Assembly (NCBI GenBank): GCA_963796105.1
Contig: CAWCKJ010000003.1
Span: 448,001 to 512,000, forward strand
Length of the DNA: 64,000 bases
Source: a candidate division FCPU426 bacterium
GTDB lineage: Bacteria; Oederibacteriota; Muellerivitia; Muellerivitales; Muellerivitaceae
Direction: 5' to 3'
The position numbers and the translations under genes were made by a program. The notes below the pieces were generated by a model. The model saw only the letters and a program-made list of their open reading frames with translations. It was not told the origin of the DNA and ran no database searches. Of this stretch, positions 54,621 to 64,000 are shown piece by piece (positions within the stretch are counted from its first letter, which is position 1; each line of letters starts with the position of its first letter).

Positions 54621-55052
54621 CTACTTAAGATATATTTCTTCTCCCTTAAAAAGTTTGTAAAGTTTATTATTTATATACCAGATTTTATATTTATCAGGAT
54701 AATGACCAACAATATAAAGATTTATTGCACCGCCATTTATCAGAACACCTGATTGGGGGCCAAAACCATTCTCTTCGGATGGATATCTGTTAATAACATT
54801 CCGAATGTATTTGTTGAAAATAAACTCATAATTTTTTCTGAATTGTTTTTTGTTTTTTATATAAACCGTTTTTCCGGCAACATATGTTTTCAAGGGAAAC
54901 CTTATCATTTCGTCAATACTCGCTATATCATTATTAGTAATTGCCAATTTTAAATTTTTCATAAATGAATTTATTGAAACCTCGTTATACTCGGGATCAT
55001 TTGGCACGTAATGCTTTTTCACCCCCCTTGAACATGAAAAAGAAAAATACAT
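54621..55052 (-). CDS. AT-rich hypothetical protein, candidate orphan immunity protein
   Basis: Low-GC ORF in an RHS context; N-terminal FSFSC may be a clipped lipoprotein signal. Confidence 0.5.
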   Translation of the reverse strand: MYFSFSCSRGVKKHYVPNDPEYNEVSINSFMKNLKLAITNNDIASIDEMIRFPLKTYVAGKTVYIKNKKQFRKNYEFIFNKYIRNVINRYPSEENGFGPQSGVLINGGAINLYIVGHYPDKYKIWYINNKLYKLFKGEEIYLK

Positions 55053-55402
55053 TAAGAACGGTATTCCCGCTTGGGTTCCGGGAGCTTGTCCGCCGGGTTG
55101 AATAGGATTTGCTGGGAGGATTCAAGCCACTCAAAAAACCGCTTCAAGGCCCGTATCTTCAAAGCCCCGGTGGAATGGCTGTAGGGCTTCCCGTCCTGCC
55201 TCTTGTCCTGGAAAACGTGTAGCTGGTAAGCCTTGAGGGTTTCCCGGCCTACCCGTTTGATCTCACCAATCCCCTGCTCCCGTAGGAAGTCAAAAAACTC
55301 CCCCAGCCTCACCCGGTAAATGCCCAACGTTGTTGGGGCATAATTCTTGGCCTTCGCATGGGCCAAGAACCCCTCCAACACTTCCGAAAAGTTGTCCTTC
55401 AT
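55052..55402 (-). pseudogene. XerD-like tyrosine recombinase, N-terminal SAM-like domain only
   Basis: FLAHAKAKNYAPTTLGIY...LKRFFEWL...FNPADKLPEPK then stop; GGAGGTGG RBS; no catalytic domain. Confidence 0.8.
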
Positions 55403-56070
55403 GTGTGCCACCTCCAATAGGCTTCCCGCGCCAACCCGCCAAGTACCCCCGCCCTTGGACGCAAACTCCCGGAACCACCGATGGTTTAGCCGTTCGCTTC
55501 TACGCCTCCAAGTACCCACCAACCACCCTTCAAGTCCACCTTGTTACCCTGCCCCCCGTGCCTGCGTCTGTGCTTCACCCAACCCTACCGCACCACAAAA
55601 ACTGATACAGAGGGGGTGGGGGCTGGCGTCGCTCGTTTCATTTGGTGCAGGAAAATCCTAGAAAAAATCCATGTTCGAGCCTTAATCAGATTCAACTTCC
55701 GTGTAAAGCCGTTTTACCTCTCGCTTTACCTTGCGCGTGTCACTGACACTGATACGGATGGGGCCTGGTCGGGCGTCGCTCAATTCACAAAAACCAGATA
55801 ACACAATAACTTTAGGCCCAAAACCAGTTCACCTTGACTGTCCTACCTCCTTCACCTTTCTTTCACCTCCGGTCTGTATAACCACAGGAAAAAATAAGGG
55901 TTTCTTGATACCTCTCACCTCTAACTACTTGATGCAGATCAAGGGGGGTTCGCCATAGCTTTTTCCAGAAACCGGCCATCCACCCCGGCAAAAGGCCCCT
56001 TTTCATGTCCTACTGTAGGACATTTCATTTCCATGGCGCGGAAATGCCATTTCCATGGGACGCAACGCAA

Positions 56071-56225
56071 TCACCCCGCTTCAGGCAGGGCCAACCCATC
56101 CAAAAAGGGCTTCCCGTCCTCTCCGCCCTCCGGGGACACCAGCTCGTAGACGTACTCCTTGCCCTTCTTGCCCGTCACCGAGTACAGGTATTCCAGGTTC
56201 TCCAACTCCCCGATATGGGTCTTTA
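56071..56225 (-). pseudogene. C-terminal remnant of RHS-element-associated DNA primase-like protein
   Basis: IKTHIGELENLEYLYSVTGKKGKEYVYEL...PFLDGL resembles, from memory, the tail of primases found next to XerD pairs and RHS genes; cut by IS21. Confidence 0.55.
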
Positions 56226-56306
56226 TGTAAACGCCGTTCCAAAAGTGTGACGGTCTAGAGGGCAAAAAAGGCGGTCGAAAAGTGTGACGCTCCCCGATTT
56301 TCCGGG

Positions 56307-57866
56307 ATGATGTGGTTCCAGAAAATGGAACTACAGAAACCGGAAGGAAAAGGAGTGTACAAAGACATGGACAAATGGACGAAAATCCGCAAGAAAATCC
56401 TGGTGGAGGGCGTTCCCAAGCGCCAGGTGATGGCAGAAGAAGGCATTCACTGGGAAACCCTCAAGAAAATACTCGCCAATAGTGAGCCTCCAGGTTACCA
56501 AATGAGTCAAGAGAGGCCCCAACCGAAGGTAGGGCCTTTCCTGGGTCGGATCAAGCAAATCCTGGAGGACGACAAGCACGTCCACAAAAAACAGCGCCAC
56601 AGCGCTAAGCGCATTTTTGAACGCCTGAAAGCCGAAGATGGATACACCGGCTGTTATACCCAGGTAAAAAGAGCGGTCCGGGGGATTAAAAAGAGAAATA
56701 GCGAGGTGTTCGTACCTTTGATCCACCGACCCGGCGAGGCGCAGGTGGATTTTGGGCACGCCTTGGTGAAGCTCAACGGTGTGTTGGTCAAACGTCCGTT
56801 TTTTGTAATGGCCTTGCCCTATTCGGATGCCTTTTTCGTACAGATGTTTGAGCGAGAGAGTACGGAGTTTGTGTGGGAAGGCCACATCCGGGCTTTTGAA
56901 TACTTTGGTGGAGTGCCCTGGCGGATCAGTTACGACAACGCCAAAACCCTCGTGACGAAAATTATCGGGGTGCATAAACGGGTGTTGGCACGGAGTTTTC
57001 AGCAGTTGGAAAGCCACTATCTCTTTGATCACCACTTTTGCACGATACGCCGTGGAAATGAAAAAGGTGTCGTGGAAGGCGGGGTGAAATATGTCCGGCT
57101 AAATTTCATGGTGCCAGTGCCGCAAGTGGGAACCCTAGAAGAACTAAACGAACAATTGAAAGTGAAATGCCGCGAGGATCTCGAACGAAAATTGCGCGGC
57201 AAGTTCCTCCCCAAAAAACAGCTTCTTGACGAGGATAAGGCCAAATTCCGGCCTTTGCCGGCCACATCTTTTGACGCCTGTCTGAAGCAGTCCACAACGG
57301 CAACGTCCTCGTCCCTGGTGCGTTTCGACACCAACGACTATTCTGTGCCTTCGGAGTGGGCACACCATCCTGTAGTGGTGAAGGGATACATCGACCGGGT
57401 GGATGTTTTCTACAGGGACAAACGTATTGCGAAGCATGATCGCCTTTGGTGCAAGGAAGGCATATCCTTCAATCCAGTGCATTATTTGGCGATCTTGGAG
57501 GGAAAACCGGGAGCATTTGATCATGCCAGACCCCTGGAAGACTGGAATCTTCCGGAAAGTTTCACCCTTCTGCACCGCCGTATGAAATCCAAGGAAAAGC
57601 TCCACGGCGAGGGAACACGGGAATTCATCAAGACGATGAGGCTTTTGGAAAAACATTCCATGGGCAGGCTCCACCGGGCAGTGAAGAAGGCCGTGGGGAT
57701 GGAAATCTATACCCGAGACGCTGTCGCTCAACTTCTCTACTCCAGGGAAGATTTCAGGCTAACCACCTTCAGCCTTGCCGGTCGTGAGCACTTGCGTCAT
57801 GTTCAGGTGGCCCGGACGGATCTTTCGGCCTACCGCGAACTGATGCCCGTGGGAGGTGAAGCATGA
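56307..57866 (+). CDS. istA: IS21 transposase IstA
   Basis: Protein identical to 50778-52337. Confidence 0.95.
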   Translation: MMWFQKMELQKPEGKGVYKDMDKWTKIRKKILVEGVPKRQVMAEEGIHWETLKKILANSEPPGYQMSQERPQPKVGPFLGRIKQILEDDKHVHKKQRHSAKRIFERLKAEDGYTGCYTQVKRAVRGIKKRNSEVFVPLIHRPGEAQVDFGHALVKLNGVLVKRPFFVMALPYSDAFFVQMFERESTEFVWEGHIRAFEYFGGVPWRISYDNAKTLVTKIIGVHKRVLARSFQQLESHYLFDHHFCTIRRGNEKGVVEGGVKYVRLNFMVPVPQVGTLEELNEQLKVKCREDLERKLRGKFLPKKQLLDEDKAKFRPLPATSFDACLKQSTTATSSSLVRFDTNDYSVPSEWAHHPVVVKGYIDRVDVFYRDKRIAKHDRLWCKEGISFNPVHYLAILEGKPGAFDHARPLEDWNLPESFTLLHRRMKSKEKLHGEGTREFIKTMRLLEKHSMGRLHRAVKKAVGMEIYTRDAVAQLLYSREDFRLTTFSLAGREHLRHVQVARTDLSAYRELMPVGGEA

Positions 57867-58639
57867 GCGAATCAAAAAAGACCCTCTTACTGGAACATCA
57901 TCTCAAAAAACTCAAACTGCCCACGATGCAGCGCGAGTACGACAAGATGGCCCAGCTCTGCCGCACTGAGCGCAGCGACTATCCCCAGTACCTTCTCAAG
58001 CTGGCCGAGTTAGAGCTTCTGGATCGGGAGCGCCGGGCCAAGGAGAGGCGCATCCGGGATGCCGGTTTTCCCGTGCTCAAGACTTTGGACACATTTGATT
58101 TCAAGGCCCAGCCCTCGATCAACCAGGAATTAATCCGGGAACTCATGCGGGGCGAGTACATGGACAAAAAAGAAAACATCCTGCTGATCGGCAACTCCGG
58201 AACGGGTAAAACCCATCTGGCCTCGGCCCTAGCCTTCCAGGCCTGTTGCCAGGGCCGAGCGGTAAAGTTCTTCTCCGTCACCGGCCTAGTGACGGAGCTT
58301 CTGGAGCGCCGGGAGGAGAAACAATTGGCCAAGTTCCACCGTCAGCTAGCCAGGCTCCATCTGATCGTCCTGGATGAACTGGGTTACGTGCCTTTCACCA
58401 AGGCGGGGGCCGAGTTGCTCTTCGAGGTTGTCAGCAAGGCCTACGAGCGGACCAGCCTGCTGGTAACGACCAACCTGCCCTTCGAAAACTGGGTGGAAAT
58501 CATGGGTTCTGAGAGGATGACGGGGGCTCTTATTGACCGTTTGACCCATCGGGTGCATATTCTGGAGGCCAACGGCCAAAGTTATAGATTAACAGAATCG
58601 AAAAAACGGCTAAGGCACAAAGACAAGAAGGAAGGGTAA
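57863..58639 (+). CDS. istB: IS21 helper ATPase IstB
   Basis: Protein identical to 50005-50781. Confidence 0.95.
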   Translation: MSESKKTLLLEHHLKKLKLPTMQREYDKMAQLCRTERSDYPQYLLKLAELELLDRERRAKERRIRDAGFPVLKTLDTFDFKAQPSINQELIRELMRGEYMDKKENILLIGNSGTGKTHLASALAFQACCQGRAVKFFSVTGLVTELLERREEKQLAKFHRQLARLHLIVLDELGYVPFTKAGAELLFEVVSKAYERTSLLVTTNLPFENWVEIMGSERMTGALIDRLTHRVHILEANGQSYRLTESKKRLRHKDKKEG

Positions 58640-58743
58640 AGACTAAAGACAAACCAACGACCATGAACCGTAAGGCTCGTGGAAGGCGGGGGGTGTCACA
58701 CTTTTGGACCGCCCACCGTCACACTTTTCAACCGGCGGGGACA

Positions 58744-58806
58744 GTATCGCCATCAGCCACATATACCTGGGTTTGAGCGTCAACAGCAACTCCCCTTGGG
58801 CTTGAG
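58744..58806 (-). pseudogene. NHL-repeat fragment between two IS elements
   Basis: Translation LKPRGVAVDAQTQVYVADGD fits the NHL consensus P.GVAVD....VYVAD. Confidence 0.6.
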
Positions 58807-58903
58807 TGTAGGGTGTAACAAAAGTCTTTCCATATTTTTTATGTAGCAGCGATGGTAATTCCGCCTCTCAAGCCGGGAAATAAGCCCCGGCAGGAGGGGT
58901 AAA

Positions 58904-60742
58904 ATGGACGAAAACCAGCAGCAATTAGATCAAGCAGAAGCAGTTCCTTCACCTAGCACACCCATTCAAAACAATTCGCAGGACCCAACTTTGACGCCTA
59001 CACGGGTAAAAAAACCTGTGGACAGCCTTGAAAAACGTCTGTTTTGGGTCAAGGAATACTTGAAAAACGGGGGTTCCCAGAGATCTTTTTGTAACACTCA
59101 TGGAATAAATAGTACGACCTTCCATTGCTGGCTAAAGGAGTATCGGACCGAGGGTGAGGAGCAGATGCGCAAGCGGCACAACCAATACCTCGCATCAGGA
59201 CACCACGATGGGCCGTTCAAGCCCGAGGAACGTCGCCAGGCTGTGGAAATGTATATAAAATCCGGGTCGTCAATCCGTGAATTCGCAAAGGTATGGGGCG
59301 TAAGCGAAAACACATTAGAAAGTTGGCATCTGAAGTACCGCACAGGAGGGCCTAAAGCCCTTGAAGGCAGGAAACCTGGTGGCCGACCCCGGCGAAAAGG
59401 AGTGCGGGAACTCATTGAGAAGGTAAAACAGGAAAACCCGGATTTCGGTTTGAGGAAAGTGAAAAATTTTCTAGGCCGAATCGCCGGCGTCAGGGTAAGT
59501 ACCAGCAGTGTCCGTAACGCTCTCAAAGGCAAAGGGTTTCCAAGCGGGAGGATGAAGAGAAGGCGGGAAAAGTCACAACTACCTCGGCGTTTTGAGCGGT
59601 CTCGCGCGGGGGACTTGTGGCAAAGCGACATCACGAGTTTCGTCCTCCCCCGTTACGGGCAACGGGTTTACTTGACTGTGTTCCTGGACGACTACAGTCG
59701 GTACATTGTTTCTTGGAGGCTGGCCTTTCAACAAAAACAAGAAATCGTGGTAGACGCGCTGCTTGCGGGTATAGACCGGTTTGGGCAACCCAAGGAAGTC
59801 CTCACAGACCAAGGGCGGCAGTATTTCGCTTGGCGGGGGAAAGGCGATTTCCAACGGCTCTTGCGTAAAAAAGGTATCCAACATGTGGTTGCGCGTACCC
59901 ATCATCCACAGACAGTTGGAAAGACAGAGCGTTTCTGGGCAACGGTCATGGAAGAATTCTGGGGACGATATCAGCCACAGGATTTAGCCGAGGCAAAAGA
60001 ACGATTAGGACATTTCATCAACCACTACAATCATTTTCGGCCACATCAGGGAATCGATGGAATGGTGCCAGCGGACCGGTTTTTCGGGGTGGAAAATGAG
60101 GTCAGAAAAGCGCTGGAAGCGGCCATGCAAAAGAACGAATTGCGTTTGGCTGTAGGTGAAGAACCAAGGAAGCCGGTATATTTGGTGGGTCAAATTGGGG
60201 ACCAACAAGTGTCCATGCATGGGGAGAAAGGGAAAGTAGTTATCCAGACGCCGGATGGGCGTGTACAAGAACTAGGGTTGAACGGTTTGGGCGTGAAAAT
60301 CCAGGAGGATACCAATGGAAGAGGCCGAGAAGAGCGAAAAGAAGCGGATTTCCAAGGGCCGCATGAAGAGAAAATTCAAGTTTCAAATGAATGTGGCATT
60401 GCCAATGAAGGCCTTGTGGGAAACGGCAAGTCTGGAGGAGAAGGAGAAAGCACACCAAACGGCGGCGGTGATGTTGGAATATTGGATGGGTCGCGTCACG
60501 AAGGAGGAAGCGGCGCAGAAACTGGAAATACCACCGTTGAGAGTGTGGCAATTGTCCCAACAAGCGTTGGCGGGCCTGGCGGCGGGGTTGGTGAAGCAAC
60601 CCAAGGCAGGCAAGAAAAAGATGAGGGAGGCCTTGCCGCCGGAGGAGGACCCGAAGCAACTGAACAAAAAAATCCAGAACCTGGAAAGGGACCTCGATCT
60701 AATGAAAGACCTGGTGAAGCTATTGAGGGAGCTGCCGGGTAA
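58904..60742 (+). CDS. IS481-like DDE transposase with tandem HTH domains and long tail
   Basis: LWQSDIT, FLDDYSRY, VLTDQGRQY, HPQTVGKTERFW, YNHFRPHQGI; AGGAGG RBS. Confidence 0.9.
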   Translation: MDENQQQLDQAEAVPSPSTPIQNNSQDPTLTPTRVKKPVDSLEKRLFWVKEYLKNGGSQRSFCNTHGINSTTFHCWLKEYRTEGEEQMRKRHNQYLASGHHDGPFKPEERRQAVEMYIKSGSSIREFAKVWGVSENTLESWHLKYRTGGPKALEGRKPGGRPRRKGVRELIEKVKQENPDFGLRKVKNFLGRIAGVRVSTSSVRNALKGKGFPSGRMKRRREKSQLPRRFERSRAGDLWQSDITSFVLPRYGQRVYLTVFLDDYSRYIVSWRLAFQQKQEIVVDALLAGIDRFGQPKEVLTDQGRQYFAWRGKGDFQRLLRKKGIQHVVARTHHPQTVGKTERFWATVMEEFWGRYQPQDLAEAKERLGHFINHYNHFRPHQGIDGMVPADRFFGVENEVRKALEAAMQKNELRLAVGEEPRKPVYLVGQIGDQQVSMHGEKGKVVIQTPDGRVQELGLNGLGVKIQEDTNGRGREERKEADFQGPHEEKIQVSNECGIANEGLVGNGKSGGEGESTPNGGGDVGILDGSRHEGGSGAETGNTTVESVAIVPTSVGGPGGGVGEATQGRQEKDEGGLAAGGGPEATEQKNPEPGKGPRSNERPGEAIEGAAG

Positions 60743-60887
60743 TCGGGAAGTGTTAAAAAAAGCGGAGGAGTTGGGAGGGAAAAAAAAGAAGCCCAAGGTG
60801 GTTCGCCCGGCAAGTGGGAACGTTGTTGGAGATGAGAAATTGCCGGGGCCAACGGAGTCTTCTATCCAGCCAACTTCAAGTGAGTGA
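60315..60887 (+). CDS. HTH/coiled-coil protein overlapping the transposase tail
   Basis: AGGAGG RBS before ATG 60315; TKEEAAQKLEIPPLRVWQL HTH-like segment then coiled coil. Confidence 0.65.
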   Translation: MEEAEKSEKKRISKGRMKRKFKFQMNVALPMKALWETASLEEKEKAHQTAAVMLEYWMGRVTKEEAAQKLEIPPLRVWQLSQQALAGLAAGLVKQPKAGKKKMREALPPEEDPKQLNKKIQNLERDLDLMKDLVKLLRELPGNREVLKKAEELGGKKKKPKVVRPASGNVVGDEKLPGPTESSIQPTSSE

Positions 60888-61830
60888 GAGGACGCTGAAT
60901 AATTGGATTCGCGGGGCGCGTAATCAAAAAAGAACGCAGGGACGCCCCGCGTATTCCGCAAGTGCAAGGTATCGGGCCAAGTTGGCAGTGAGGCGTCAAG
61001 TGAGGGATTTCGGTTGGACTACGGGATGGAGATCTATTGCGGACATCCTTCGCGGCAAAGTATCGACGAGGTTGGTGCAGGAAAGTCTGTCCCAAATAAA
61101 GGCTAGACACCGGAAAAAGTTGAGGGAGTTGGCCGAGAAAAACCGGGTGAGCGTAGAGGTGTTGGCAAAAGATGTGATCTGGGCGCAGGACGCGGCCCAC
61201 ATCGGGCGTATTGGAAAAGTAGTGCTACAGGCAGAAGTAATCAAAGATCGAGCGACTTTGGGTTTTAAAGGGCTGACAGTCGGACCCGCCGCTAAAGCGG
61301 AAAATATATTGACCATGTTGGAGCTGCAAAAAAAGAAAACGGGACTGCCTTTGGTTTGGGCGACCGACAATGGTTCGGCCTACAAGAACGAAAAACTGAC
61401 AAACTACCTACAGCGAGAAAAAGTGATTCATCTGCTTTCTCGGCCCCGGACACCGCAAGACAATGGGGCCGCTGAGCGAGGAATCGGCGAATTAAAGGCG
61501 GAATCCGGGCTAGAAAAAGGGGTTGGATTTCGTGCTGTGCGGGAAGTTGTATCGTGCTTAGCGAAAACGTGGCACCTGCTAGATGGCCGACCTAGGGCCA
61601 GCAAAGGCTATCAGAGCGCCCTGCAGCTTGAAAACAGCCTTGTGAAAGGCCCTTCGTTGGTTGATCGGGAGGCTTTCTACCTGGAAGCTTGCAGGAATAT
61701 TAAAAAAGCGGTACAAGGAGGTGGAACACCCAGAGAAAAACGAAAAGCGGAGCGTTTAGCTATTTACGAAACACTAGAGAAAAATCACTTAATTAACATT
61801 CTGAGGGGCGGAAAAAATTGTCGTGCTTAA
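60814..61830 (+). CDS. Second rve/DDE integrase-core protein
   Basis: IWAQDAAH, WATDNGSAY, PRTPQDNGAAERGIGELK; start uncertain. Confidence 0.85.
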   Translation: MGTLLEMRNCRGQRSLLSSQLQVSERTLNNWIRGARNQKRTQGRPAYSASARYRAKLAVRRQVRDFGWTTGWRSIADILRGKVSTRLVQESLSQIKARHRKKLRELAEKNRVSVEVLAKDVIWAQDAAHIGRIGKVVLQAEVIKDRATLGFKGLTVGPAAKAENILTMLELQKKKTGLPLVWATDNGSAYKNEKLTNYLQREKVIHLLSRPRTPQDNGAAERGIGELKAESGLEKGVGFRAVREVVSCLAKTWHLLDGRPRASKGYQSALQLENSLVKGPSLVDREAFYLEACRNIKKAVQGGGTPREKRKAERLAIYETLEKNHLINILRGGKNCRA

Positions 61831-61865
61831 CAGGAAATTCAGGAAGATATTTTGTGAACACTACA

Positions 61866-64000
61866 AGTAAAGGTATCCGTCGAAGTGTTGGTTGGGGTAT
61901 TTGTGGGGGTGTTCGTCGGCGTATAAGAAGGAGTATTTGTCGGAGTGAAAGAGGGGGTATCGGTAAAAGTGAGAGTGTAGGTATTAGTGTAAGTGCTTGT
62001 AAAAGTATTTGTCGGTGTATTGGTAAAAGTGTCCGTGTAAGTTGAAGTCCATGTATTTGTGTTGGTCGGGGTGTCTGTTGGGGTATCCGTCGAAGTAAAC
62101 GTTGGGGTATCCGTGGGTGTATTAGTGGGAGTATTTGTTGGAGTAAAAGAAGGAGTGTCCGTAAAAGTGGAGGTGTAGGTATTCGTATAGGTGTAAGTGA
62201 AGGTGTTGGTGGGTGTATTAGTAGGGGTGTTTGTGGGAGTGAAGGAAGGGGTATCTGTGAATGTGGGAGTGTAGGTGTTAGTAACGGTATCAGTGGGAGT
62301 ATTCGTGAATGAAGGCGTATAGGTGTTAGTCCAGGTAAAAGTATTGGTGGAAGTGTCGGTCGGAGTATTTGTTGGGGTAAAAGAAGGGGTATCGGTTGGA
62401 GTGTTTGTGGGTGTCCAGGTATTCGTATTGGTAGAGGTAAAGGTGTCCGTGAAGGTATAGGTCCATGTATTAGTGTTAGTCGGAGTGTTGGTGGGTGTAT
62501 TTGTTGGAGTGAAAGAAGGTGTATCAGTGAAAGTGGGGGTATAGGAATTGGTGTAAGTGTTCGTAAAAGTATTTGTCGGTGTATCGGTTGGAGTGTTAGT
62601 TGGTGTCCAGGTATTCGTGTTGGTGGGGGTAAAGGTATCGGTAAAAGTATAGGTCCAGGTATTGGTGTTAGTGGGAGTATTTGTGGGGGTAAAAGAAGGG
62701 GTCTCGGTCGAAGTGTACGTGTAGGTGTAAGTGGGTGTCGGTGTGGCGGTCCAAGTAAAGGTATTAGTCGGTGTATTGGTAGGGGTATTTGTGTAGGTAT
62801 AGGTAAAAGTGGGTGTCGGAGTAGAAGTCCAAGTAAAAGAATTAGTCAGTGTGTTGGTGAAAGTCTTAGTAAATGTATTGGTAGGTGTATTGGTTGGGGT
62901 GTTCGAGGGTGTGTAGCTATAGGTATAAGTGTATGTATAGGTTTTTGTGAAGGTATTAGTTGGAGTAATAGTAGGGGTATTAGTGACTGTGGGTGTTTTG
63001 GTCAGGGTTTTGGTGAAGGTAGGTGTTATGGTGGGTGTATAAGTTTTTGTAGTTGTAAATGTTGTTGTTGGAGTGCAGGTTCCGCCTCCAGGAGGAACAC
63101 CTGATTCAGGGTCCAGGTTCCCACCGGTTTTTACTTCCTGCAATAGAACTCCGTTGGAATAGAGCGCGAAGTGGTGGTCGTCGAAATATGGACCGGATTG
63201 GTTTCCATTACAGGATGTTTGGGTAGAAGGTAGGCTTGAATAATCATCCGTGAAGCTGTCCCAATTGCCGCTTACGTTTCCACATTGGGAAGACGACGTG
63301 GCGATGATGGCGAAACCCTGCATCCATCCGCCGGCAGGAATGACAGACACCCCGCTTTGGTAAGTGAGGGTGACAGAACCGGATTGGTTGGAGATGTGGC
63401 TGGAATTTTCAGTGTATGTGGGAAGGGATGTATCGATGGAATAGGCGCTACCCGCCAACACCATCGGGCCAACTTGAACACCGGAGGAGTTGTAAACTAT
63501 CCCGTTGTTCCCTACCAAAGACGTGCAACGAAGCTGGCTCTCATAAACCCAAATTCTCATGGACAAATTAGTGGCGCTTAAGGTAAGCGGCGATGAGCCG
63601 TTGTTAACGATCAGGAAAGTCCAGCGACGGTCCTGGAGACCCTGTTCACTGCAATTGACCATCAAGTCAAGTTTGAGGCTGGTCGAGGCGCCGCAAACCG
63701 GGAATCCGGATGTCAAAGGAGAAAAACCACTTCCAGGACCGTTAGACCAATAAGGCTGCATGGTAGCGGTTTGAGTCATGGTCGGAGTATTAGTGGGTGT
63801 AGTAGCTTTACTGTCCTTGGACTTTAGGTCAGGAGTCGGGGAAATCGTGGGTGTGATGGTGGGTGTTGGTATTAGGGTTGGCGAGAATGTCGGGGTAAGT
63901 GTTGGAGTTGGAGGAGATTTTAACTCTACACAATTTTCATTCGAGGGTTCACTTTCACCAATTGGATTCATGATGAAAGCTGTCACCTCGTAACACCAAT
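61866..64000 (-). pseudogene. Fourth Thr-stalk surface protein (FN3 end + CBM3-like + TxTx), 3'-truncated by IS; 5' end outside window
   Basis: Frame open to the window edge: WCYEVTAF...GESEPSN (FN3-like); [20 protein letters not shown] and FTDDYS...[10 protein letters not shown] (CBM3-like); stalk ends at the IS boundary. Confidence 0.75.

What the first reader, a model, noticed from the sequence alone, without database searches (positions are those of the whole stretch)
58807..61865. Three-ORF IS481-like element with two different DDE proteins and a 428-nt dual-coding overlap
Seen: within TGT...ACA imperfect IRs lie a multi-HTH DDE transposase, a second ORF with its own AGGAGG RBS overlapping it in another frame (60315-60742), and a third ORF with a second complete-looking D-D-E set. 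Known: IS481 elements normally encode one transposase; IS3 elements use orfA/orfB frameshifting. Inference: a possibly undescribed IS subgroup with a heteromeric transposase, with ORF2-ORF3 perhaps fused by frameshift near the A-run at 60780-60787.
Basis: partly seen in the sequence, partly recalled or inferred. Interest (0 to 1): 0.7.

Follow-up and report, generated by a model that had tools for sequence, protein, structure and literature searches.

The report
Insertion sequence with two DDE transposases
This 3.1-kb jumping gene, like about a hundred relatives in environmental bacteria, keeps two different cut-and-join enzymes and a small predicted DNA-binding gene inside one pair of ends and leaves no target duplication, which suggests that it likely needs both enzymes to move and likely deletes host DNA where it lands.

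Summary
Confirmed and extended. Window 58807-61865 is one intact element. One pair of TGT..ACA inverted repeats encloses an IS481-like DDE transposase (ORF1), an OrfA-like HTH/coiled-coil gene (ORF2) and a second DDE transposase (ORF3, D-D35-E invariant).

Of 101 related loci, 82 carry all three genes, nearly all in the same frames. Most misses are contig ends, and there are no internal ends, so this is not two nested ISs. The overlap is under selection: 9 stops were seen against 144 expected.

ORF3 lies in the +1 frame, not IS3's -1. An A7+ run marks the junction in 24 of 55 elements, pointing to transcriptional slippage; 17 others have their own start instead.

New here: 38 elements show target duplications at chance level only, while seven other IS families of this genome have them. 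The flanks come from different, cut genes. A sister subgroup has two HTH genes.

No description was found in nine paper searches; ISfinder was not searchable. The scan noted this family twice before on other DNA. That both enzymes are needed is inferred, not shown.

The parts
58807..61865 (+). Whole element, 3059 bp, TGT...ACA ends, no target site duplication
   Evidence: 99.93%-identical copy at another site in same-genus genome G006
58807..58831 (+). Left inverted repeat (family consensus TGTGGGGTGTAACAAAAGTCTTTCCG)
58892..58897 (+). AGGAGG ribosome-binding site of ORF1
   Evidence: sequence
58904..60742 (+). ORF1, 612 aa: HTH repeats, DDE core (D242 at 59627, D302 at 59807, E342 at 59927), conserved region aa 400-450, Gly/Glu-rich tail aa 470-612
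60303..60308 (+). AGGAGG ribosome-binding site of ORF2
   Evidence: an SD match of 5 nt or more with a start in 57 of 69 representatives
60315..60887 (+). ORF2, 190 aa: predicted HTH plus coiled coil, OrfA-like
60315..60742 (+). 428-nt dual-coding overlap of the ORF1 tail with ORF2
60780..60787 (+). A8 run, likely +1 slippage site that would give an ORF2-ORF3 fusion of about 504 aa
   Evidence: precedent IS1447 (PMC6211511)
60757..61830 (+). ORF3 open frame; conserved coding from about 60787; HTH, then DDE core (D126 at 61189, D185 at 61366, E221 at 61474, K228), helical C-terminus
61842..61865 (-). Right inverted repeat (family consensus read inward TGTAGTGTTCACGAAATATCTTCCGG)
58744..58806 (-). 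Left flank: short fragment reading SSPRGVAVDAQTQVYVADGD (NHL-like; label recalled), between this element and an IS21
61866..63998 (-). Right flank: Thr/Pro-repeat gene that reads into the right end and is cut there

Best explanation
This is an intact member of a family of insertion sequences that carry two different DDE transposases and an HTH accessory gene inside one pair of ends; it likely needs both enzymes to transpose, likely makes the second enzyme as an ORF2-ORF3 fusion by +1 transcriptional slippage on the A8 run, and likely joins its two ends to non-adjacent host positions, so that it leaves deletions rather than target duplications. Shown: one unit, both triads conserved, overlap under selection, A-run enrichment, no TSD, flanks from different genes. 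Inferred, with odds: both enzymes required, about 0.7; slippage fusion in this copy, about 0.7; ends joined separately during the insertion itself rather than a TSD lost afterwards, about 0.45; one enzyme per end, about 0.3. ORF2 alone would act as an OrfA-like end-binding regulator, by analogy with IS3. The ORF1 tail is likely a disordered acidic extension; its role is unexplained.
For: Co-occurrence: of 101 loci found with ORF2, 94 have ORF1 upstream (92 in the same frame relation), 86 have ORF3 downstream (84 at +1) and 82 have both. Independent searches of 401 genomes with ORF3 and ORF1 profiles gave the same unit. The same ends enclose it in 45 loci of 2804-3501 bp. Both D-D-E triads are invariant although ORF3 evolves about 1.8 times faster, and they are kept in the distant subgroup (11 of 11). 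The ORF3 model has pLDDT 91 and matches integrase/TnsB/IstA folds. A-run 24 of 55 against 3 of 1469; A-run and SD-start tend to exclude each other (20 run only, 17 start only, 4 both, 14 neither); run phase is free (12/3/9). TSD 0/1/2/3 bp in 25/11/1/1 of 38, as in shuffled pairs; 10 near-identical recent copies in three genomes show 0-3 bp. Seven other IS families in G000 have TSDs at 105 of 106 copies. The C7 paralogue joins two genes that each run on intact in G006, and at least 38 kb and 21 kb beyond them have no close match in G000 apart from repeats. Eight elements have a Pfam domain starting or ending at one end with no continuation at the other. Left and right ends differ consistently at positions 9-12.
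Against: No experiment, transcript or protein evidence. 14 of 55 elements have neither an A7+ run nor an SD-start, so entry into ORF3 is not fully explained. In the closest pair, 6 of 8 changes in the ORF2-tail/ORF3-start overlap fall on ORF2 third positions, as if ORF2 were the constrained frame; across 13 pairs the ORF3 signal there is weak (0.14/0.15/0.20). ORF1 and ORF3 trees have 5 conflicting supported split pairs. The IS21 next door also lacks TSDs at 4 of 4 copies, so loss of TSDs is not unique to this family. Metagenomic flanks can be chimeric. No exact empty site was found, so deletion during or after insertion cannot be told apart. A few loci lack one gene despite enough DNA (L023, L164 and G225 among them). 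Relatives are not independent, so the counts overstate significance.
Confidence: 0.6

Rival explanations
1. Same two-enzyme element, but it inserts normally with a 3-4 bp TSD and then makes adjacent deletions so often that no copy keeps both original flanks.
For: Adjacent deletions explain TSD loss for IS150, and a fused IS3 OrfAB raises their rate (PMC11708052, passages). G000 holds several solo ends and truncated copies. 3-bp matches occur at L035 and L187.
Against: Two 3-bp matches among 48 elements is about what chance gives (2.5% each). Even 98.5-100% identical copies lack TSDs. The IS3-like element of the same genome keeps 9 of 9.
Confidence: 0.3
2. Only one enzyme does the transposition; the other DDE protein does a separable job (excision or circle formation, deletion-making, regulation) and is not strictly required.
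For: ORF3 diverges faster and is only about 20% identical to ORF1. Some module swapping is suggested by tree conflicts between ORF1 and ORF2/ORF3, with none between ORF2 and ORF3.
Against: Both triads are invariant in both subgroups. No intact standalone ORF3 element was seen among 16 strong full-length hits examined.
Confidence: 0.2
3. ORF3 is made from its own weak start (GTG 60814, TTG or ATG nearby) and the A-run merely encodes lysines of ORF2.
For: 17 of 55 relatives and the distant subgroup use a separate SD-start. The closest pair shows ORF2-frame constraint after the run.
Against: There is no start codon upstream of the first predicted helix in the window's ORF3 frame, and the nearby starts shift between close copies. 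Pure A-runs are rare elsewhere in these Lys-rich genes (3 of 1469). L035 stops ORF2 right after the run.
Confidence: 0.2
4. Two independent ISs (an IS481 and an IS3) are nested or in tandem by accident.
For: ORF1 resembles IS481 and ORF2/ORF3 resemble IS3 orfA/orfB; an ancient fusion may be the origin.
Against: No internal ends: best inner score 13 against a median end score of 27, apart from one duplicated right end. The unit, frames and overlap are the same down to 30-40% identity, and whole units are multi-copy.
Confidence: 0.03

Closest known systems
IS481 family (NCBIfam NF033577)
   Same: TGT..ACA ends; HTH plus rve-type DDE transposase; ORF1 scores 223.8 bits against a cut-off of 224.
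   Different: Three genes and two DDE enzymes instead of one (single ORF recalled); no TSD, whereas most IS481 make 6 bp and some about 15 bp (PMC10045372, passages); about 3 kb; long dual-coded tail.
IS3 family, especially the IS1447 subgroup (PMC6211511)
   Same: OrfA-like HTH/coiled-coil gene followed by a D-D35-E gene in the +1 frame with an A-run at the junction; IS1447 slips on A9 and A7 suffices (abstract and section 8 read).
   Different: An extra full transposase upstream; ORF3 far below the NF033516 cut-off (58 against 160 bits); ORF3 has its own N-terminal HTH and a long helical C-terminus; no 3-4 bp TSD; many members use a separate start.
Tn7 / CAST heteromeric transposase TnsA+TnsB (recalled)
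   Same: Two catalytic proteins are thought to share the work; TnsB is among the fold matches of ORF3.
   Different: TnsA is not a DDE enzyme; Tn7 uses an AAA+ ATPase and target selectors and makes 5-bp TSDs (recalled). No ATPase lies inside these ends.
IS21 family (IstA + IstB)
   Same: Two-protein IS with TG..CA ends; the IS21 next door also lacks TSDs.
   Different: The second protein is an AAA+ ATPase, not a DDE enzyme; the neighbouring IS21 is a separate multi-copy element.

Membership tests
IS481 | Ends 5'-TGT...ACA-3' with imperfect inverted repeats | tested here: met
IS481 | Transposase matches NF033577 at the curated cut-off | tested here: inconclusive
   ORF1 223.8 against 224 bits; ORF3 67
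IS481 | One transposase ORF, no frameshift (recalled) | tested here: not met
   three conserved ORFs, two DDE triads
IS481 | Target site duplication, mostly 6 bp or about 15 bp | tested here: not met
   0 of 38 with more than 3 bp, up to 45 bp of flank examined; family values from PMC10045372
IS3 | orfA (HTH, coiled coil) followed by an overlapping orfB with D-D35-E and K/R at +7 | tested here: met
   ORF2/ORF3; spacing and +7 rule recalled
IS3 | orfB in the -1 frame, fused by ribosomal frameshift (IS1447 subgroup: +1 slippage) | tested here: not met
   +1 in 84 of 86 loci; fits only the IS1447 exception
IS3 | orfA/orfB are the only transposition genes | tested here: not met
   ORF1 present in 94 of 101 loci
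IS3 | 3-4 bp target site duplication | tested here: not met
   chance level in 38 + 10 elements; control IS3-like element 9 of 9
IS3 | Copy-out-paste-in through a circle with abutted ends | tested here: inconclusive
   no right-left junction in the loci then held or in G000; contigs rarely hold circles
Tn7-like | TnsC-type AAA+ ATPase and TniQ/TnsD inside the ends | tested here: not met
   the three ORFs fill the element; none is an ATPase
Any ISfinder entry | Organisation already listed in ISfinder/TnCentral | not testable with these tools
   database not on hand; plasmid tblastn gave only 25-33% partial hits

The most novel reading that the evidence does not exclude
A new family of insertion sequences whose transpososome is built from two different active DDE enzymes, one for each end, which join the two ends to separate target sites and so delete or rearrange host DNA at every jump.
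Probability: 0.3. Interest if true: 0.9.

Novelty: new variant of a known kind. Interest (0 to 1): 0.74.

Why it matters
Described insertion sequences use one DDE enzyme, at most with an ATPase or an OrfA helper (recalled). A compact 3-kb element with two conserved DDE active sites makes division of labour in a transpososome directly testable with four point mutants. If its insertions come with deletions, it is a built-in genome-deletion engine in Planctomycetota and other uncultured lineages, and a possible tool. Annotation pipelines would miss it, calling ORF1 IS481 and leaving ORF2 hypothetical. It also adds a selected 428-nt bacterial gene overlap and a family in which slippage and a separate start alternate for the same gene.

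Tried and rejected

Sequencing runs: no RNA holder listed; two DNA runs gave only short contig pieces and no joints, so nothing is drawn from them.

ORF1-ORF3 fusion as the general rule was rejected: ORF1 stops before the A-run in 13 of 24 A-run elements, including this one; it stays possible in the other 11. ORF1-stop coupling to the ORF3 start was rejected: 1 of 17 within 15 nt.

Long or split TSDs: none up to 45 bp. One 4-bp cross-match between two G353 copies gave no gene continuity and was judged chance. The 3-bp match at L187 could not be confirmed by homologues.

Empty-site searches for L128, L016 and the window's right flank found no joined site. A search for longer fused forms of ORF3 found nothing, which is weak evidence.

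No significant RNA structure at the A-run (z -1.25); promoter scan at chance level. The Pfam Cren7 hit on ORF2 is below cut-off and was not accepted. Foldseek on the ORF2 model gave no match at E<=0.001, only weak HTH hits.

PMC7188733 and PMC13548323 (passages) were not relevant.

Full report
Observation. The element runs from 58807 to 61865 (3059 bp) between imperfect inverted repeats. ORF1 (612 aa) matches IS481 at 223.8 bits, cut-off 224. ORF2 (190 aa) has only a weak hit to the N-terminal part of the IS3 model. ORF3 matches IS481 and IS3 weakly, at 67 and 58 bits. ORF2 is +1 to ORF1 and ORF3 is +1 to ORF2. The 428-nt overlap, the AGGAGG sites and the A8 run are as described. The IS21 at 56226-58743 is a separate multi-copy element.

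One unit. The genome holds a second full copy on C7 at 47/48/38% protein identity with the same frames and an A8 run, plus solo ends and remnants. An ORF2 alignment retrieved 21 genome loci (titles mostly Planctomycetota) and the best 80 of 152 metagenome matches. Of these 101, 94 have ORF1 upstream (92 in the same frame relation), 86 have ORF3 downstream (84 at +1) and 82 have both. Most misses are contig ends; L023 and L085 are real truncations. The ORF2 profile finds 362 clusters at 50% identity.

Reciprocal searches. To avoid circularity I searched 401 genomes with the ORF3 profile. Of the 30 loci returned, the 16 strong full-length ones all have ORF2 upstream and 15 have ORF1. The ORF1 profile in the same kind of sample hit 41 genomes. 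I fetched 16 further stretches: the second DDE gene follows in 9, ORF2 follows in 1 that ends at a contig edge, 4 have too little downstream DNA, and 2 (G225, and a frameshifted copy in G260) lack it.

Ends and trees. The same ends enclose the unit in 45 loci of 2804-3501 bp. Inner end-like sites score at most 13 against a median of 27 for true ends, apart from one duplicated right end. Trees of the three proteins are correlated (Mantel 0.40-0.52). ORF2 and ORF3 never conflict; ORF1 conflicts with ORF3 in 5 supported split pairs (31 full-length representatives only). The element is recently mobile: G006 has one copy at 99.93% at another site and four at about 94.6%.

Both enzymes look active. 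ORF1 D242/D302/E342 are invariant in 31 sequences. ORF3 D126/D185/E221 are invariant in 67, with K228 at 94%. The two proteins are homologous from HTH to core but only 20% identical. The ORF3 model (pLDDT 91) matches RSV and PFV integrase, TnsB and IstA. The ORF2 model (pLDDT 69) is an HTH-like bundle and a long helix; Foldseek gave only weak HTH hits, and the Atlas places it next to HTH_28/HTH_Tnp_1 clusters.

Sister subgroup. A more distant subgroup (G353, G336, G229, G290, G392 and others) has a shorter ORF1 tail, usually two HTH genes and, at least in G353, a separately started second DDE gene. All 11 examined keep D-D-E.

The overlap is selected. In 62 of 69 representatives below 80% identity (7 dropped for too little flanking codon data), the ORF1 frame across the ORF2 core has 9 stops against 144 expected and is open in 55 against 9.8. 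The third frame shows no depletion, 344 against 291. Synonymous T before AA/AG/GA is used in 12 of 1216 cases against 10% elsewhere in ORF2; single-coding controls show 9-12% against 15%. The tail is 23% Gly and 21% Ala and shows little conservation of its own. Why it stays open is unexplained; coupling to the ORF3 start is not supported.

Entry into ORF3. Conserved ORF3-frame residues begin about 9 codons before the GTG at 60814 and form the first helix of the model. The window has no start codon upstream of that point, and the GTG is GCG in the G006 copy. An A7+ run lies at the junction in 24 of 55 representatives against 3 of 1469 control windows; 20 have the run only, 17 an SD-start only, 4 both and 14 neither (Fisher p 0.005, kin not independent). 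The run's codon phase varies, which fits transcriptional slippage. IS1447 is the precedent: +1 slippage on A9, with A7 sufficient (PMC6211511, abstract and section 8). Against this, the closest pair shows ORF2-frame constraint after the run (6 of 8 changes) and the pairwise signal is weak.

No target duplication. Among 38 elements with both flanks (7 of 45 dropped for short or duplicate flanks), exact duplications are 0, 1, 2 and 3 bp in 25, 11, 1 and 1, matching shuffled pairs. Near-identical copies give 0,0,0,2,3 (G353), 0,1,0 (G336) and 1,0 (G229). As a control, seven other IS families in G000 have TSDs at 9/9, 30/30, 24/24, 19/20, 10/10, 9/9 and 4/4 copies. I left out repeats whose ends were partial or undefined. 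The IS21 also lacks TSDs at 4 of 4, which limits how special the trait is.

The flanks are not contiguous. The C7 copy joins a flagellar rod/hook gene (Pfam Flg_bb_rod) to a glycosidase-like gene (label recalled). Each continues intact in G006, and at least 38 kb and 21 kb beyond them have no match at 85% or more in G000 apart from repeats. Pfam domains start or end at one end with no continuation at the other in L001, L019, L044, both G034 copies, L185, L186 and L189; no element had the same family on both sides. Most flank segments had no hit, so power is limited. IS481 members mostly make 6 or about 15 bp TSDs (PMC10045372, passages). Adjacent deletion is the known cause of TSD loss (PMC11708052, passages).

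Mechanism. The most likely reading is a two-enzyme transposase in which ORF1 and the ORF2-ORF3 product both cut and join, ORF2 alone regulates, and the two ends are joined to separate target positions. The conserved left/right end difference would suit one enzyme per end, but IS3 ends are asymmetric for promoter reasons too (recalled). Insertion followed by very frequent adjacent deletion is the main rival. No binding, expression or activity was measured.

Novelty. It fails defining tests of IS481 and IS3 yet works with their chemistry, so I class it as a new variant, probably a new family. Nine full-text searches (listings seen, five papers opened in part, no supplements read) found no description. 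Subscription papers and ISfinder were not searchable. Two earlier AI notes of this scan describe the same family on other DNA. I saw them after forming this reading, and they are not independent support.

Noticed in passing
window 56226-58743: IS21 (istA 56307-57866, istB 57863-58639); 4 full copies in G000, none with a target duplication, unlike seven other IS families of the genome.
   Followed up: partly
window 55052-55522 and 56071-56265 (- strand): Tyrosine-recombinase-like N-terminal fragment and a short remnant cut by the IS21; labels recalled, not searched.
   Followed up: no
window 61839-63998 (- strand): Long Thr/Pro-repeat gene cut by the element; the genome holds very many such repeats.
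   Followed up: partly
G000 C3:534922, C4:658519, C6:87706, C12:303797; C3:318454-318790; C12:298.7-300.2 kb: Solo ends and ORF3 remnants of at least two further family members.
   Followed up: partly
L183-L189, L200, L201, L250-L257, L263: Distant subgroup of 3.4-4.3 kb: ORF1 with a shorter tail, usually two HTH genes, second DDE gene; multi-copy in G353, G336 and G229.
   Followed up: yes
flanks of 55 left and 60 right ends: Weak symmetric target bias: C at -6, purine at -5 and few A at -1; few T at +1, pyrimidine at +5 and G at +6. Not tested statistically.
   Followed up: no
L055:3651-3674 and L020 near its right end: The last 12 bp of the right end are tandemly duplicated in L055; L020 carries a second right end just inside the first.
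   Followed up: no
L122 (G034:C1:1403000-1421000): Two 92.5%-identical copies in direct orientation 7.2 kb apart enclose about 4 kb of host genes, like a composite transposon, between a cut subtilase gene and an FlgD-Ig fragment.
   Followed up: partly
window 58814-58819 and 61852-61857: TGTAAC in the left end and TTGTGA in the right end could form a -10/-35 pair across a circle junction, as in IS3 (inference; no junction found).
   Followed up: partly
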